This document shows, piece after piece, positions 8,624-54,514 of a stretch of DNA of 64,000 bases (positions are counted from its first letter, which is position 1; every line of letters starts with the position of its first letter). The translations under genes and the position numbers were made by a program. Location: the NCBI GenBank assembly GCA_964016885.1, contig OZ024740.1, positions 204,228,001 to 204,292,000 of the forward strand. The letters run 5' to 3'. The DNA is from Eledone cirrhosa. Lineage: Eukaryota. Below the pieces are notes generated by a model. It ran no database searches. It saw only the letters and a program-made list of their open reading frames with translations, and had not been told where the DNA came from.

Positions 8624-9245
8624 TATTAGAATTGGAGCTCTGAAATAGCAATATATATATATGGATGTATATATAATGTATTTTGCAATACACTTTATGC
8701 TTAATTAAAAGCATTTTGAAGACCGTAAGCTATTGTTTTAAAGTAGTGACAAATTCACTCACTTTAATCTCAGCAAACAGGGGAGATAAGCCGACAAGAC
8801 TTGTTTCGCTTTGGTTGAAGCTTATCAAGGCCAACTACCCCACCCGTCTACTGAGATCATTGATGTTATATTCTTATAGAAATCTAGTAAATAATCAGGA
8901 GCTGATTATGCAGAGCGGTTGTTGGTCAGGCAGAAATTAAAAATTAGAATTGGAGCTCTGAAATAGCAATGACCAACAACCGCTCTGCATAATCAGCTCC
9001 TGATTATTTACTAGATTTCTATAAGAATATAACATCAATGATCTCAGTAGACGGGTGGGGTAGTTGGCCTTGATAAGCTTCAACCAAAGCGAAACAAGTC
9101 TTGTCGGCTTATCTCCCCTGTTTGCTGAGATCAAAGTGAGTGAATTTGTCACTACTTTAAAACAATAGCTTACGGTCTTCAAAATGCTTTTAATTAAGCA
9201 TAAAGTGTATTGCAAAATACATTATATATACATCCATATATATAT
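8624..9245. mobile_element. Fold-back non-autonomous element in (TA)n: ~270-bp inverted arms with a degenerate hammerhead-like motif
   Basis: Arms ~8655-8928 and 8970-9245 (one mismatch seen). The spacer repeats the terminal attagaattggagctctgaaatagcaat. Motif ggcc-ttgataa-gctt(caacca)aagc-GAAA-caagtcttg-TC-ggct at 9065-9110. Related fragment at 34940-35025. Confidence 0.75.
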
Positions 9246-9271
9246 ATATATATATATATATATATATATAT

Positions 9272-9430
9272 AGTGTAGTATAAGTTTGGTAGACATATAC
9301 AAGAATAAGAGCACTCAGTCCATAGGACGAATTAAGTATAATTAGTTACAACAGTAACATATACAGGTATTTAAGTTTCGTTTGGTTATACACCCCAACT
9401 CATTCAGTCTCTTATATAAAATAAAAATGG
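9272..9430 (-). mobile_element. PLE-type 3' terminus with degenerate hammerhead (9359-9418)
   Basis: Minus strand ctgaatga-gttgg...ccaaac-GAAA-cttaaa-TA. Tail aattcgtcctatggactgagtgctct matches aactcgtcccatggactgagtgctct near 50696. Abuts (TA)n. Confidence 0.6.
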
Positions 9431-10656
9431 TTACCTCCACTGGTTCATTTGAGGTTTTTATAAAAATACACGAGAGTTCTTCAAGGGCAGGTAATTTCGA
9501 ATTTACCTATTAATTAAAAAAATATTTTAGATAATATAAAGGCAAGTAACTATCGAAAAAACTTCAAAGGAGGAGTGGGGCTTGTGCAAAATTAGCAATT
9601 CAAAAAAATTAAATTCCTTGAAATTAAAATCAGTTAATCTGATATATACCATTTTCTCAGAATGAATTTCGCTTCGTGTGGACAGCGACTAAAACTGTCG
9701 AGGTAGGTATTTAAACAGTTTCTCTGAAGCCAGTTGCCAGAGTATATTCCACTTTTCCATGTTACATAGCCTGCCAATCGCTGTCCACATGAAGTGAAAT
9801 TCATTTTTTGTTTGTGTAGCATGTATATTATTAGCCAATGTTTTGTTACATATATGACTATACTGTGCAATGCTTTTTCTAGTTTTAAACAGTAGACAGT
9901 GATTTGAGGGAAAGTTGACTGCTATTTCTAGCACCTCAAATGATCCCATTATGGACGTTCCTACTTGGTTATTGTTATTTAGCCCCAGTGGACTGGCAGC
10001 AATGTTAGGGTGTCGGACGAAATCTTTTGTGGTATTTCTACCGGACTTTGTCCTTCATCCTTCCGGGTTGATAAAATAAAATACCTGTCAAGTACTGGAG
10101 TTAACTTTTATCGACTTGCAACCCACCCACACACCAAAAGAAAATATCTCGCCTTATGTCTATATTAGAAATTTGTTATTTAACCCTAGATCTGCTCTGA
10201 TTGAAAGGCGTTCCTGCGTGACCTTCCCGTCTTTGTGTGTATCAGGAACTATATTGTCCGATATATCCTTTATTTCAGTCTGTAATGCATGATTTAAGTG
10301 AGCTTTGGCTGCTATTTCCAGCATATCGGCAAACTTTATAGAAGCGTCCTTATAGAACGTGAGGCCAACCGATATCTATTGACGTCATTTTAATTGTTTG
10401 CAAAAAACAACTCCCTCCCTCTCTCTCTCTCTCTCTCTCTCTCTCTCTCTCTCTCTCTCTCTCTCTCTCTCTCTCTCTCTCTCTTTCTCTCTCATTTTTT
10501 ATTTAATTCCTTCAGAAATGTGGTTGGTGTAAGGTATGAGTAATACTTCACCTATGGTGTAATGGGGATAAAAGGAAGAGTTTAGAAGAATCGCTTATTG
10601 GTGATAACGATGAGAGTTCCAATTGTTCGAGCAACGGAACAGCTTGCTCATGAAGT

Positions 10657-10770
10657 TTACGTGTACATGGCTGAACATTCCACAATGACGTATGTTACGT
10701 GTACGTGGCTGAACATTCCACAATGACGTATGTTACGTGTACGTGGCTGAACATTCCACAATGACGTATG
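10657..10770 (+). repeat. 38-bp tandem repeat x3 inside a SINE
   Basis: ttacgtgtacRtggctgaacattccacaatgacgtatg repeated three times. Confidence 0.9.
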
Positions 10771-11393
10771 CCCTTAACGTAATTTCTGTGGAGTTTCAGT
10801 GTGACTGTGTATAACAAGACTGAGCCATTGAATTACAACGTAAGGGATTGAGTATTCCACAGACAGGTGTACCCTTAACGTAATTCTCGAGAAATTCTGC
10901 GTGACTTAGTGCATTACAAAGCTTGCTCTTTGGATTATAGATACTGTCCTTCTGGTAGGCTTCCAAATAGTTTCTGCCCACCCAATTTTTCTCACAAGGC
11001 TTGCGTCGATCCGAGACTATGGTAAATGACAGTGAAATCGAACACATAATCTAATGATTGCGAAATGAACTATTTAACCAGTCGGCCATACTACGTCCAC
11101 AAGGAAAGGTTTAAGTTACATATATAGATATTCTTACATTAGCATCAAAAGGTTAAATCAGGAATTACAATTGTTATTTTTTTTTTAAACCTCCCTCGTC
11201 AGGGTGTTGGCCCCATGGTTGAATGACCATGAACTTACTTCTCTGAGGCACAAGTCTGAGCAAGCTCGTCCGGAATTGAACTCATGCCTTTATGATCGTG
11301 AGCCTAGCATTCTTAACCATGGAGCATTCACTGTATAGGGTGCTTGCTATAATTAATGCACTCATGTAAAATCTATATAATCAACTATTTTAG

Positions 11394-11526
11394 CACGTGT
11401 TCGAGTGATTGAAAAGTATATTTTTGGACGAGGAGAAGTATTTCATAAAAATGTTTGGGGAACCATTTGTGATGACGGATTGAAAACTAGTGCGGCGGTG
11501 GTTTTCTGCAGAAGCTTGGGATACAG
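11394..11526 (+). CDS. SRCR exon, first half of domain 2
   Basis: tttag|CA...AG|gtaag; RVRVIEKYIFGRGEVFHKNVWGTICDDGLKTSAAVVFCRSLGY. Confidence 0.93.
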
Positions 11527-51990: not shown

Positions 51991-52525
51991 TATGGAACTC
52001 CTTTAACCATCTTTTGATCTTATATTATATATATATATATATATATATATATATATATATATATATATATATATATATATATATATATATATATATATAT
52101 ATATATATAACGAAGGAAATGTGGTAAGGAACCAGGTGGACCATAACGCACCAAAGTACTCAATACTTAGGGTAGTAGAGTGGGTAATAGGAATCAGTAA
52201 GACCCCGACGGCTGAGCTCAAGCCGTTTCGACGGCTATTAGCCGTCGAAACGGCTTGAGCTCAGCCGTCGGGGTCTTACTGGTTCCTATTATATATATAT
52301 ATATATATATATATATATATATATATATATATATATATATATATATATATATATAAGTATTGAGTACTCTGGTGCGTCCACTTGGTATCTTATCACACCC
52401 TCTTTGTTTATATATATATATATATATATATATATATATATATATATATATATATATATATATATATAGTTGAACATATACGTTCATTATTTACTGTTAA
52501 TAAACATGCATATTTTTTTTTTCAG

Positions 52526-52695
52526 TGATGGCGTTTCAGTAGCAGGGAGAAACTTCAAGAGTTCGATAACTAAGAGCTGGGTGTCGGATGTCAATTGCAC
52601 AATACAATCAAAATCGTTAAGTGATTGCCAACATATTCTTCTTGATCACCAGACATGTCCAGTCGCTAAATTAATAGGAGTCAAATGTTTCAATG
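52526..52695 (+). CDS. SRCR exon, second half of domain 5
   Basis: ttcag|T...G|gttag; DGVSVAGRNFKSSITKSWVSDVNCTIQSKSLSDCQHILLDHQTCPVAKLIGVKCFN. Confidence 0.92.
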
Positions 52696-52734
52696 GTTAG
52701 TAGTTTTATAATCATGTTTTATGATACTTAGGCG

Positions 52735-54140
52735 GCGTATTGACAATCTGCATTCAGCAAATATTGAGCGATAACATCTCCACACAAGACATCAACGCGC
52801 AATTTCAACATTTCATGACATCAATACAAACCATATGCCGGAAAAAAAGGCCGACAGACACCAAAATGTTATTCCCAGAGGCACGAACATCTTTATAAGA
52901 TGAAAAACAAAGATCTCAAATCTGTTAAGAAAGAACCCCATTTGAAACAGGCACTGCTTGAAATTGAATCTTCACTCAAATTTTCTCATGAAAAGGAGAG
53001 GGCAGAGAGAAAGGATGGTACCATAAAAAATATTAAAACAAACCCTACGGCCTTCTTTAAATTTGCCAAAATGACTGCCTCGGTACACTGCAAGATTGGG
53101 TCACTTTTCCATAAAAATAGCTCACTGGCCGAGGATCCTCAAGGAATACGTGAAATACTGAATGAACAGTATAAAAGTGTTTCCACCCACCCCCAATGAA
53201 GCTCATGCAAATAACAAAGCCAAGAGAATTATTTGATGCCACAGTAACACAGGGAGAAATAGCGACCATCAACCACATAGGAAGATGTAATATCAACCAC
53301 GGAGGAAGATGTAATATCAGCTATGGAAGAAATGAGAGCCAACTCAGCTTCTGGACCTGATGGATTCCAAGCAGTCCTCCTAAAAACATGCAAGCGTATC
53401 TTAGTAAGACCTGTGAAGATCTTCTTCAGAAGTTCTCTGGCGAGCGGTAAACTACCCAGAGAGCTAAAAAACAAAAGGGCATAATATGTCTTATCCATAA
53501 AGGAGGAAGCAGAGCAGAGGCTAAAACTACAGGCCGGTCTCCCTGACTTCACATATAAGTAAACTGATCGCGTTCCTCGAGGAAAATGACCTAACTAACA
53601 CACAGCACGGCTTTCGTCCGGGAAGAACATCCCTTAGACAGCTTTTACAACACTACGACTGAAACAGCTGCGGGACTACTCAAATGTGGATGTGATATAT
53701 CTTGACTTTGCGAAGGCCTTCGATAAGGTCGACCATGGAATATTACACAAACTACACAGATTCGGCATAGTTGTAAAATTAGGTGAGTGACTGCATGACT
53801 TCTTAAAAGACAGGAGCTAGACTGTTGCAGCCAACAAGATGCTCTCAAAGGAAACATCAATAACAAGTGGGATGCCCCAGGAAACTTCTTGGGACCACTA
53901 CTGTTTTTTTTGTGTGTGGCTCACTCAGACATGCTCTCTGCAGTACATACAACATCCCTCACTAGCTAAGCTAAGCTAATGACACAGATATAACACAGGC
54001 AATGAAGAAACCGACTGATGCTACTCTTTTAAAACAAGATCTGGACGTCATATACAAATGGGCTGAAGACAACTATATGCAATTTAATGTTCGAAAATTT
54101 CAAGCCCGTCGATATCACCTGCAAACACAATGACAGTACA
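52735..54140 (+). mobile_element. Degraded CR1-group LINE fragment
   Basis: SASGPDGF, QHGFRPGR and DVIYLDFAKAFDKVDH remnants with many stops. Confidence 0.75.
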
Positions 54141-54237
54141 ACAAAGCTACATGTTTATATATATATGTGTGTGTGTGTGTGTGTGTGTGTGTGTGTGTGT
54201 GTGTGTGTGTGTGTGTGTGTGTGTGTGTGTGTGTGTG

Positions 54238-54514
54238 TTAAGTATTTTCGTAGAAAACGTAAAGGAAAAAAGAGTGCTCGCTGTATTGTACAGAGCTATC
54301 TAATTACAGAATAAACAACACGGTGTAATTATTTCATTACCGAAAGTTTCGAGATACTAGATCATTCATACAGAAACATTTAGCTCGGTGGTCAGTGAAA
54401 ATAACTATAATTGTTTTCACTGACGAACGAGGTAAATGTTTCTGTAAGAATCATCTAGTTTCTCGAAACTTTCGGTAATGAAATAATTACACTGTGTTGT
54501 TTATTATGTAATTA
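54238..54514. mobile_element. Fold-back mini-element (~107-bp arms) with a degenerate hammerhead (54408-54489, +)
   Basis: Palindrome 54301-54514 centred at 54407/54408; ttttca-CTGACGA-acgag...ctc-GAAA-ctttcgg-TA-atgaaataatta; gagtgctc at 54272. Confidence 0.65.

What the first reader, a model, noticed from the sequence alone, without database searches (positions are those of the whole stretch)
8624..54514. Intronic population of hammerhead-ribozyme mini-elements in TA microsatellites, alongside Penelope-like helpers
Seen: type I hammerhead motifs with intact cores at 24883(-), 27792(+), 43661(+), 45968(-), 48180(+), 49610(+), 50195(-), 50616(+), 51730(-) and 51920(+). Weaker or degenerate ones lie at 3462, 9065/8788, 9359, 48479, 51485 and 54408. 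They belong to several sequence families, nearly all abut (TA)n, and most have no ORF. Two families (24758, 50478) are attached to GIY-YIG endonuclease ORFs. Known: PLE pseudo-LTRs carry minimal hammerheads with palindromic stem III that act as dimers, and retrozymes are non-autonomous hammerhead retroelements. Inference: a diverse, possibly unannotated set of non-autonomous ribozyme retroelements mobilised by (TA)n-targeting PLEs.
Basis: partly seen in the sequence, partly recalled or inferred. Interest (0 to 1): 0.85.

Follow-up and report, generated by a model that had tools for sequence, protein, structure and literature searches.

The report
Penelope ribozyme ends sharing a hairpin
The hammerhead-ribozyme motifs in these introns of a likely octopus gene are real and sit at the ends of TA-repeat-seeking Penelope-like jumping genes, most of them likely cut-short copies and two or three likely protein-free passengers, and their ends share a small predicted hairpin that likely tells the copying enzyme where to start.

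Summary
The ribozymes are real: all 10 'intact' type I hammerheads are present (9 by the strict scan, 0.025 expected per shuffle), their stems covary, they lie in introns of a DMBT1-like gene, and 17 of 18 sites precede a TA tract. The two GIY-YIG 'helpers' are 5'-truncated Hydra-clade Penelope-like elements (PLEs), a TA-targeting clade already reported from Octopus. Most ORF-less pieces are inverted, truncated PLE ends, a known pattern. Three ORF-less partial tandems (380, 420, 652 nt units) do look non-autonomous; one is fused head-to-head to a Hydra copy. New here: a bulged hairpin followed by RCTY in the 3' tails of six families (11 hits, 1.6 expected). In 7 of 7 two-ended insertions with such a tail, the tail-less end stops 0-5 nt before the hairpin's first stem base. 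It also fits 3 of 6 published Hydra consensi (coral, sea cucumber). It likely positions the reverse-transcription start. Cleavage, expression and copy number are untested. The scan noted a TA-inserted, PLE-type non-coding unit on other DNA before.

The parts
4931..61799 (+). Host DMBT1-like (SRCR repeat) gene; exons near 4931, 5187, 7549, 11393, 13461, 21009, 24275, 36654, 41821, 45164, 52521, 58500, 59878, 61662; all elements below are in its introns
8627..9235 (.). Family F foldback between TA tracts; arms 265/266 identical; U3-A8 hammerhead in each arm (core 9070-9076 on +); short tail on the - arm, no bulged hairpin
9273..9420 (-). Truncated end related to family C: degenerate hammerhead, tail hairpin 9309-9332, ends at a TA tract
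24759..27892 (.). Family A Hydra-clade PLE: 5'-truncated copy on - (27199 to 24759, with tail) plus inverted truncated copy on + (27170-27892, no tail, 488-nt deletion); TA tracts on both sides
25923..27199 (-). RT C-terminal end (frameshifted), thumb, CxCx5C linker and GIY-YIG endonuclease with CxxC..E..N..CxH
24883..24953 (-). Family A hammerhead, one mismatch in stem III
27792..27862 (+). Family A hammerhead, intact
33893..34690 (-).
34709..34907 (.). Family E foldback; tail hairpin 34836-34863; only a possible 3' half of a hammerhead
34938..35023 (-). Family F tail-only fragment ending at a TA tract
43400..43852 (+). ORF-less partial tandem U380 (about 380-nt unit plus 66-nt repeat, 60/66 identical); hammerhead core at 43676 with extended stem I; 3' end at a TA tract, 5' end at (AC)n; no tail hairpin
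45732..45896 (.). Foldback copy of the U380 3' end; its + arm begins 2 nt after the predicted cleavage site
45921..48376 (.). Family B inverted pair (arms 361/371 identical) around 1.6 kb of AT-rich DNA with no PLE ORF; hammerheads at 46026- and 48188+; tail on the + arm with GAGTGCT and an imperfect hairpin
48424..48560 (-). Family H truncated end, core CUGUUGA, ends at a TA tract
49580..49807 (+). Family D truncated end: hammerhead core 49617, tail hairpin 49724-49747, ends at a TA tract
49931..50460 (-). ORF-less partial tandem U420 (420-nt unit plus 110-nt repeat, 107/109 identical); hammerhead core 50231; joined head-to-head to family C without a TA tract
50470..51558 (+). Family C Hydra-clade PLE partial tandem: pLTR with tail (hammerhead 50625, hairpin 50697-50720), (TA)10, truncated linker and GIY-YIG ORF 50776-51306, tail-less pLTR (core G5 changed to A)
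51606..52025 (.). Family A ORF-less foldback (arms 164/165 identical); hammerheads 51792- and 51928+; tail hairpin 51659-51687
52110..52408 (.). Family E foldback 52110-52289 (tail hairpin 52154-52181) and tail-only fragment 52356-52408, each between TA tracts
54239..54512 (.). Family G foldback (arms 90/98 identical); imperfect hammerhead; tail hairpin 54272-54296 with the compensatory GCTC/GAGC outer stem; left flank is (TG)n
3460..3500 (+). Doubtful hammerhead-like site; no TA end, no related copy in the window

Best explanation
The hammerheads lie at the 3' ends of at least ten small repeat families inserted at TA tracts, two of them carrying truncated Hydra-clade Penelope-like ORFs; most ORF-less pieces are likely abortive copies of such elements, two or three short units are likely non-autonomous passengers, and a shared tail hairpin likely positions the start of reverse transcription. 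Shown: Hydra-type protein motifs; ends at TA; inverted arm pairs in which only one arm has a tail; the tail-less arm stops at a TA-like patch 0-5 nt before the hairpin. Inferred, by analogy with the Poseidon element tested in vitro (PMC11167929): the Hydra protein would nick both strands of a TA tract and prime cDNA on each from two internal RNA sites that flank the tail. Early stops would give short arms joined head-to-head. The protein would bind the bulged hairpin, which would set the proximal start. RNAs that keep the hairpin or an equivalent end (U652, probably U420, less surely U380) would be copied in trans. The palindromic stem III would let most ribozymes cleave only as dimers or with protein help, which would limit harm to the host pre-mRNA; cleavage may not be needed for insertion.
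For: Hydra membership: CxCx5C and CxxC..E..N..CxH in both ORFs; among 33 full-length homologs 29 have DK[TS], 2 have DKG and 33 have the C-terminal motif, matching Craig 2021 section 11. Architecture: 7 inverted pairs and 1 tandem were aligned; in all 8 only one arm has the tail, and each tail-less arm runs into TA. Hairpin: 11 descriptor hits against a null mean of 1.6 and maximum of 5; 8 of 11 lie in element tails, in six families with six different inner stems and a compensatory ACTC/GAGT to GCTC/GAGC swap. Of 9 GAGTRCT sites near TA ends 7 have the hairpin, of 15 elsewhere none. Read by eye, it fits 3 of 6 published Hydra consensi exactly (Amil-2, Ajap-1, Ajap-2), nearly fits Crog, and is absent from the two that end soon after the ribozyme. 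Non-autonomy: three partial tandems whose repeats are 91-98% identical, whose longest ATG frame is 77 codons, which match no Hydra profile, and which fold with z -8.7, -7.9 and -5.0. U420 joins family C head-to-head with no TA between. Dimer folding pairs the stem III palindromes for A27800, A51928, C50625 and C51495.
Against: There is no whole genome and no read-level data, so each short unit is seen once as a full unit and family status is unproven. The hairpin descriptor was made after seeing the tails, so its statistics are optimistic. The hairpins are weak (-2.5 to -8.8 kcal/mol); the proposed fold is the minimum-energy fold in 5 of 12 stretches folded, approximate in 2, and not favoured for family E or B. 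Families F and H, U380 and U420 lack the hairpin, and B and the 24759 tail miss the descriptor. The cofold did not give the dimeric hammerhead for D49617, A24945 or U380. Internal palindromes inflate the folding z-scores. Families B, D, E, F, G and H have no ORF here, so their clade is inferred from ends only; octopus Naiads also prefer (TA)n.
Confidence: 0.72

Rival explanations
1. Everything is debris of autonomous PLEs: the three short partial tandems are one-off deletion or template-jump products, not self-propagating families.
For: Family A shows ORF-linked and ORF-less forms of one family. A 488-nt internal deletion in the right arm of 24759-27892 shows that such rearrangements occur. 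U420 and U652 have no second copy in the window.
Against: In each unit the end repeat is followed directly by the unit start, a head-to-tail join of only 380-652 nt. U380 has a second, diverged copy (89%). The units are strongly structured.
Confidence: 0.25
2. One reading: most of the motifs belong to retrozyme-like elements that spread through ribozyme-cut monomers or circular RNAs.
For: Unit sizes, low GC (37-38%) and strong folding resemble animal non-LTR retrozymes. One arm (45776) begins 2 nt after the U380 cleavage site.
Against: No locus has two same-strand ribozymes in tandem short units. Element ends map to TA patches around the tail, not to cleavage sites. U652 has no ribozyme by Rfam, descriptor or own model. 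Cleavage was not needed for insertion in PMC11167929.
Confidence: 0.15
3. The tail motif works as double-stranded DNA (an endonuclease recognition site or promoter element) or as an RNA dimerisation palindrome, not as a start-site hairpin.
For: GAGYRCTC is nearly palindromic. The Drosophila Penelope tail was needed for endonuclease recognition (as cited in PMC11167929). In Ajap-1 the motif lies about 100 nt before the start codon. Folding energies are weak.
Against: The inner stems differ in sequence between families yet stay complementary, with a constant 1-2 nt bulge on the 3' side, which points to a single-stranded structure.
Confidence: 0.25
4. The foldbacks are MITE-like DNA transposons or assembly artefacts at microsatellites.
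For: Near-perfect inverted arms flanked by TA.
Against: The arms are asymmetric by a constant tail, turn at different points within one family (E), and continue into PLE ORFs. Three runs of one sample hold about half of the sampled words of 45000-52600, though these may be the source sample.
Confidence: 0.03

Closest known systems
Hydra-clade C-terminal EN+ Penelope-like elements, including Hydra-1_Obim of Octopus bimaculoides (Craig et al. 2021, PMC8557442)
   Same: C-terminal GIY-YIG, CxCx5C linker, CxxC and CxH motifs, hammerhead near the 3' end, (TA)n targeting, partial tandems, inverted truncated copies, one-sided tail
   Different: The families here have other ribozyme and end sequences than Hydra-1_Obim (compared by eye). 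Tails are about 58-86 nt rather than 30-40 and carry a conserved bulged hairpin that the main text does not mention. ORF-less partial tandems are not described for this clade in the parts read.
Minimal PLE hammerheads (Cervera and de la Pena 2014, PMC4209133)
   Same: Type I, palindromic stem III, unpaired base at position 10, U3-A8 variant, opposite-strand pairs 100-700 bp apart from truncated PLEs
   Different: Families A, B and D have a 7-8 bp AU-rich stem I, a long stem II and an 8-nt palindrome
Animal non-LTR retrozymes (PMC7229834; bioRxiv 10.64898/2026.07.22.740005)
   Same: ORF-less, about 300-650 nt, low GC, structured, type I hammerhead, proposed to be PLE-derived and PLE-mobilised
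   Different: Here about 1.2 units with one ribozyme (or none), dispersed in microsatellites, not dimers or multimers; expression and circles not shown
Putative non-autonomous Chlamys PLEs such as MRC1 (PMC8557442)
   Same: ORF-less elements forming pLTRs by partial tandem
   Different: Green algal, no canonical hammerhead, other target repeats
Poseidon PAc of Anolis, internal RT initiation (Frangieh et al. 2024, PMC11167929)
   Same: Two start sites flanking the tail; both strands cut and extended; AT-rich targets; a stem-loop near the start
   Different: In PAc the start sites lie in an AC-rich stem-loop inside the ORF; here the proximal end lies just 5' of a non-coding bulged hairpin, at a TA-like patch that could pair with the target

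Membership tests
Hydra-clade PLE (families A, C) | C-terminal GIY-YIG endonuclease after the RT thumb | tested here: met
   profile positions 369-705 and 523-705; tblastn
Hydra-clade PLE (families A, C) | CxCx5C linker; CxxC and CxH around the conserved E and N | tested here: met
   both ORFs
Hydra-clade PLE (families A, C) | RWK and DKT motifs in the N-terminal part | tested here: inconclusive
   region truncated in the window; in full-length homologs DK[TS] 29 of 33, strict RWK 8 of 33, relaxed 19 of 33
Hydra-clade PLE (families A, C) | Insertion into (TA)n and a hammerhead at the 3' end | tested here: met
Hydra-clade PLE (families A, C) | RT phylogeny inside the Hydra clade | not tested
   RT core missing from both copies; no tree built
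Autonomous helper element | Full RT-EN ORF | tested here: not met
   both ORFs 5'-truncated
Type I hammerhead ribozyme | Core CUGANGA, GAA, UH and three stems | tested here: met
   10 of 10 listed sites; covariation
Type I hammerhead ribozyme | Self-cleavage | not testable with these tools
   needs an in vitro assay
Non-LTR retrozyme (U380, U420, U652) | No ORF, unit of a few hundred nt, GC below 45% | tested here: met
Non-LTR retrozyme (U380, U420, U652) | At least two tandem units, each with a complete hammerhead | tested here: not met
   about 1.2 units; one ribozyme in U380 and U420, none in U652
Non-LTR retrozyme (U380, U420, U652) | Expressed as self-cleaved linear and circular RNA | not testable with these tools
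   no RNA holder listed
Non-autonomous PLE family (U380, U420, U652) | Many genomic copies with fixed unit ends and no ORF-bearing form | tested here: inconclusive
   window only: U380 has one further partial copy; no genome held

The most novel reading that the evidence does not exclude
Hydra-clade PLEs use a conserved bulged RNA hairpin, shared from corals and sea cucumbers to octopods, as the reverse-transcriptase binding and template-boundary signal. Octopod genomes hold a SINE-like class of short non-coding passengers, with or without a hammerhead, that use this signal to be copied into TA microsatellites, sometimes in the same insertion event as a Hydra copy.
Probability: 0.4. Interest if true: 0.7.

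Novelty: new variant of a known kind. Interest (0 to 1): 0.48.

Why it matters
How PLE proteins recognise their RNA, and what makes the one-sided 'tail', is known for one element in vitro only. A short structural signal conserved across phyla, at a fixed distance from a start site, gives a direct test and a search handle for unannotated non-autonomous families. The density (18 ribozyme-like sites in one gene, six intact ones on the pre-mRNA strand) also raises the question of how the host tolerates them. The bare existence of such hammerheads in an octopod genome is not new.

Tried and rejected
No whole genome was held, so there are no copy counts. No RNA holder was listed; read-level evidence on unit ends and expression was not obtained. 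Rfam found only sub-threshold HH9 matches and many microsatellite-driven miRNA matches. Pfam gave no hit for either GIY-YIG ORF. Searches for Hydra loci with flanks found nothing: viral contigs, 35 pattern matches, none confirmed; metagenomes with P0088, 64 matches, none confirmed; two alignments gave no usable pattern. For U652 no hammerhead, twister, HDV-like ribozyme or tRNA was found; the HDV descriptor was my own and had no positive control. The family B interior has no PLE ORF and only short AT-rich matches to the family A 3' region. An octamer-type promoter in U380 (two ATGCAAAT) is not supported as special: there are 11 such sites in the window, and the newt parallel is recalled, not confirmed by the listing. 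A MAFFT alignment of the tail hairpins was not structural, so no pair count was made on it. Earlier-finding look-ups by place and by sequence returned nothing, nor did two of three answered word searches.

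
Full report
Setting. The window is animal DNA rich in microsatellites and old retroelements. One exon's only hit is a DMBT1-like protein of Octopus vulgaris (76% identity). That protein maps 14 collinear exons on the + strand from 4931 to 61799. The host is therefore likely an octopod, and every element discussed lies in an intron. No whole genome was available.

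The ribozymes. A strict type I descriptor finds 9 motifs, against 1 in 40 shuffles. The tenth listed site has one stem III mismatch. Six copies of families A, B and D show compensatory changes in stems II and III: 6 pairs changed on both sides, 0 of 500 shuffles, but only 5 distinct rows. Rfam sees only the pair at 8772-8842 and 9056-9126, below threshold; its core is the U3-A8 variant that Cervera 2014 described. Of the other weak sites, 51485, 48479, 9359 and 54408 are damaged or irregular, and 3462 is doubtful. Seventeen of 18 sites have a TA tract within 171 nt downstream, against 12% background within 280 nt; paired arms make these counts non-independent.

The 'helpers'. Neither ORF hits Pfam. 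Both match unnamed 700-residue proteins. A profile of the 33 longest of 153 homologs covers positions 369-705 at 24759-27892 and 523-705 at 50767-51306, and nothing else above 10 bits in the window. Both ORFs carry CxCx5C and CxxC..E..N..CxH, the marks that Craig 2021 gives for the Hydra clade, together with TA targeting and hammerheads. That paper's supplement lists Hydra-1_Obim from Octopus bimaculoides with a TA preference and a hammerhead. So these are truncated Hydra copies, not helpers.

Architecture. A masked self-comparison sorts the elements into two classes. The first is inverted pairs of element ends: F (8627-9235), A (24759-27892 and 51606-52025), E (34709-34907 and 52110-52289), B (45921-48376), G (54239-54512) and a U380-family pair (45732-45896), plus single truncated ends (9273, 34938, 48424, 49580, 52356). 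The arms counted for F, A, B and G are 92-99.6% identical. Family A occurs with and without its ORF, so truncation alone explains an ORF-less piece. Craig 2021 and Cervera 2014 both describe this pattern. The second class is three ORF-less partial tandems: U380, U420 and U652. Each has a short copy of its 3' end followed by a full unit. Their longest ATG frame is 77 codons and they fold far better than shuffles. U380 and U420 have one hammerhead each; U652 has none that I could find. U420 meets family C head-to-head with about 10 nt between them and no TA tract. This is the geometry of an inverted pair, but with two different templates, and suggests one insertion event.

The tail hairpin. In all 8 two-ended insertions aligned, one end has a tail and the other stops at an internal TA-like patch and runs into (TA)n. 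The tail is 58-86 nt after the shared end (24 nt in F). GAGTRCT lies 30-100 nt before a TA tract in 9 of 24 occurrences, against 3.5% background. A descriptor RYTY-stem-loop-stem-bulge-RAGY-RCY gives 11 hits (null mean 1.6, maximum 5); 8 are in tails of A, C, D, E, G and U652, each family with its own inner stem. In the 7 insertions with such a tail, including B and 24759 whose hairpins are imperfect, the tail-less end lies 0-5 nt before the first stem base. Reading the six Hydra consensi of Craig 2021 by eye, the same fold is exact in Amil-2 (inner stem TACACT/AGTGTA), Ajap-2 (TGCT/AGCA) and at the 5' end of Ajap-1 (TGTCC/GGACA). It has one mismatch in Crog and is absent from Amil-1 and Obim-1, which end within about 45 nt of the ribozyme. 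Against it: the descriptor is post hoc; the folds are weak and are the minimum-energy structure in 5 of 12 stretches; F, H, U380 and U420 lack it.

Mechanism. Frangieh 2024 showed for a Poseidon element that both strands are cut and extended, that reverse transcription starts at two internal sites flanking the tail, and that ribozyme cleavage is protein-assisted and not needed for insertion. The window fits this scheme: two primed strands, two start sites, early stops, head-to-head joining. The hairpin is the obvious candidate for what fixes the proximal start. That step, copying in trans and dimer cleavage are inferred, not shown. Dimer folding supports stem III pairing for A and C but not for D or U380. 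One arm begins 2 nt after a predicted cleavage site; a single case is weak evidence of cleavage in vivo.

What is known and what is not. Hammerheads in PLE ends, Hydra elements in Octopus, inverted truncated pairs and retrozymes as non-autonomous PLE derivatives are all in print. I found no description of the tail hairpin or of ORF-less Hydra passengers in searches, and the words hairpin, stem-loop and foldback do not occur in the main text of Craig 2021. The library lacks most subscription journals, and Repbase and Dfam, including the 21 Repbase Hydra families, were not visible. What I saw of each paper: PMC8557442, passages, section 11 and supplement parts 1, 2, 52 and 53 of 59 plus one search; PMC4209133, parts 1-2 of 4; PMC7229834, passages; PMC11167929, parts 1-2 of 4; bioRxiv 10.64898/2026.07.22.740005, parts 1-3 of 5, supplements not seen.

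Verdict. The population is mostly ordinary Hydra-type PLE debris, with two or three probable non-autonomous units and one conserved, testable signal. Interest 0.48.

Noticed in passing
window 49158-49577 and 16960-17762: Two fragments of another retroelement (77% alike, opposite strands) whose reading frames look like the 3' end of a restriction-like-endonuclease non-LTR element (label recalled; no Pfam hit); the 49158 copy directly abuts the 5' end of family D.
   Followed up: partly
window 43559-43652: Three 33-nt repeats upstream of the U380 hammerhead, two with an exact ATGCAAAT octamer; possibly an internal promoter.
   Followed up: partly
window 33627-33726: Another possible tail (GAGTGCCC after a TACATA/TATGTA stem) ending at a short TA tract; no ribozyme seen.
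   Followed up: partly
window 54540-54711 and 12029-12115: Short inverted-repeat elements without hammerhead or tail motif; 54540-54711 lies between TA tracts.
   Followed up: no
window 29731-33155: Long, nearly intact non-LTR retrotransposon ORFs with RVT_1 and zf-RVT matches.
   Followed up: no
window 7727-8150, 33243-33475, 39970-41778, 60527-60760, 62152-62567: Many copies of a SINE-like repeat, some in head-to-tail pairs of about 200 nt; ARAGORN finds no tRNA gene.
   Followed up: no
window 45301-52521: One intron holds four intact hammerheads on the pre-mRNA strand; three (B, D, A) share the same stem I and AU-rich palindromes, so mixed dimers on the host transcript are conceivable.
   Followed up: no
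window 5374-5916 and 37370-37872: Minisatellites of 17 and 34 nt period.
   Followed up: no
window 15295-16415: Two overlapping ORFs (274 and 109 aa) of a probable decayed DNA transposon; no Pfam hit for the longer one.
   Followed up: no
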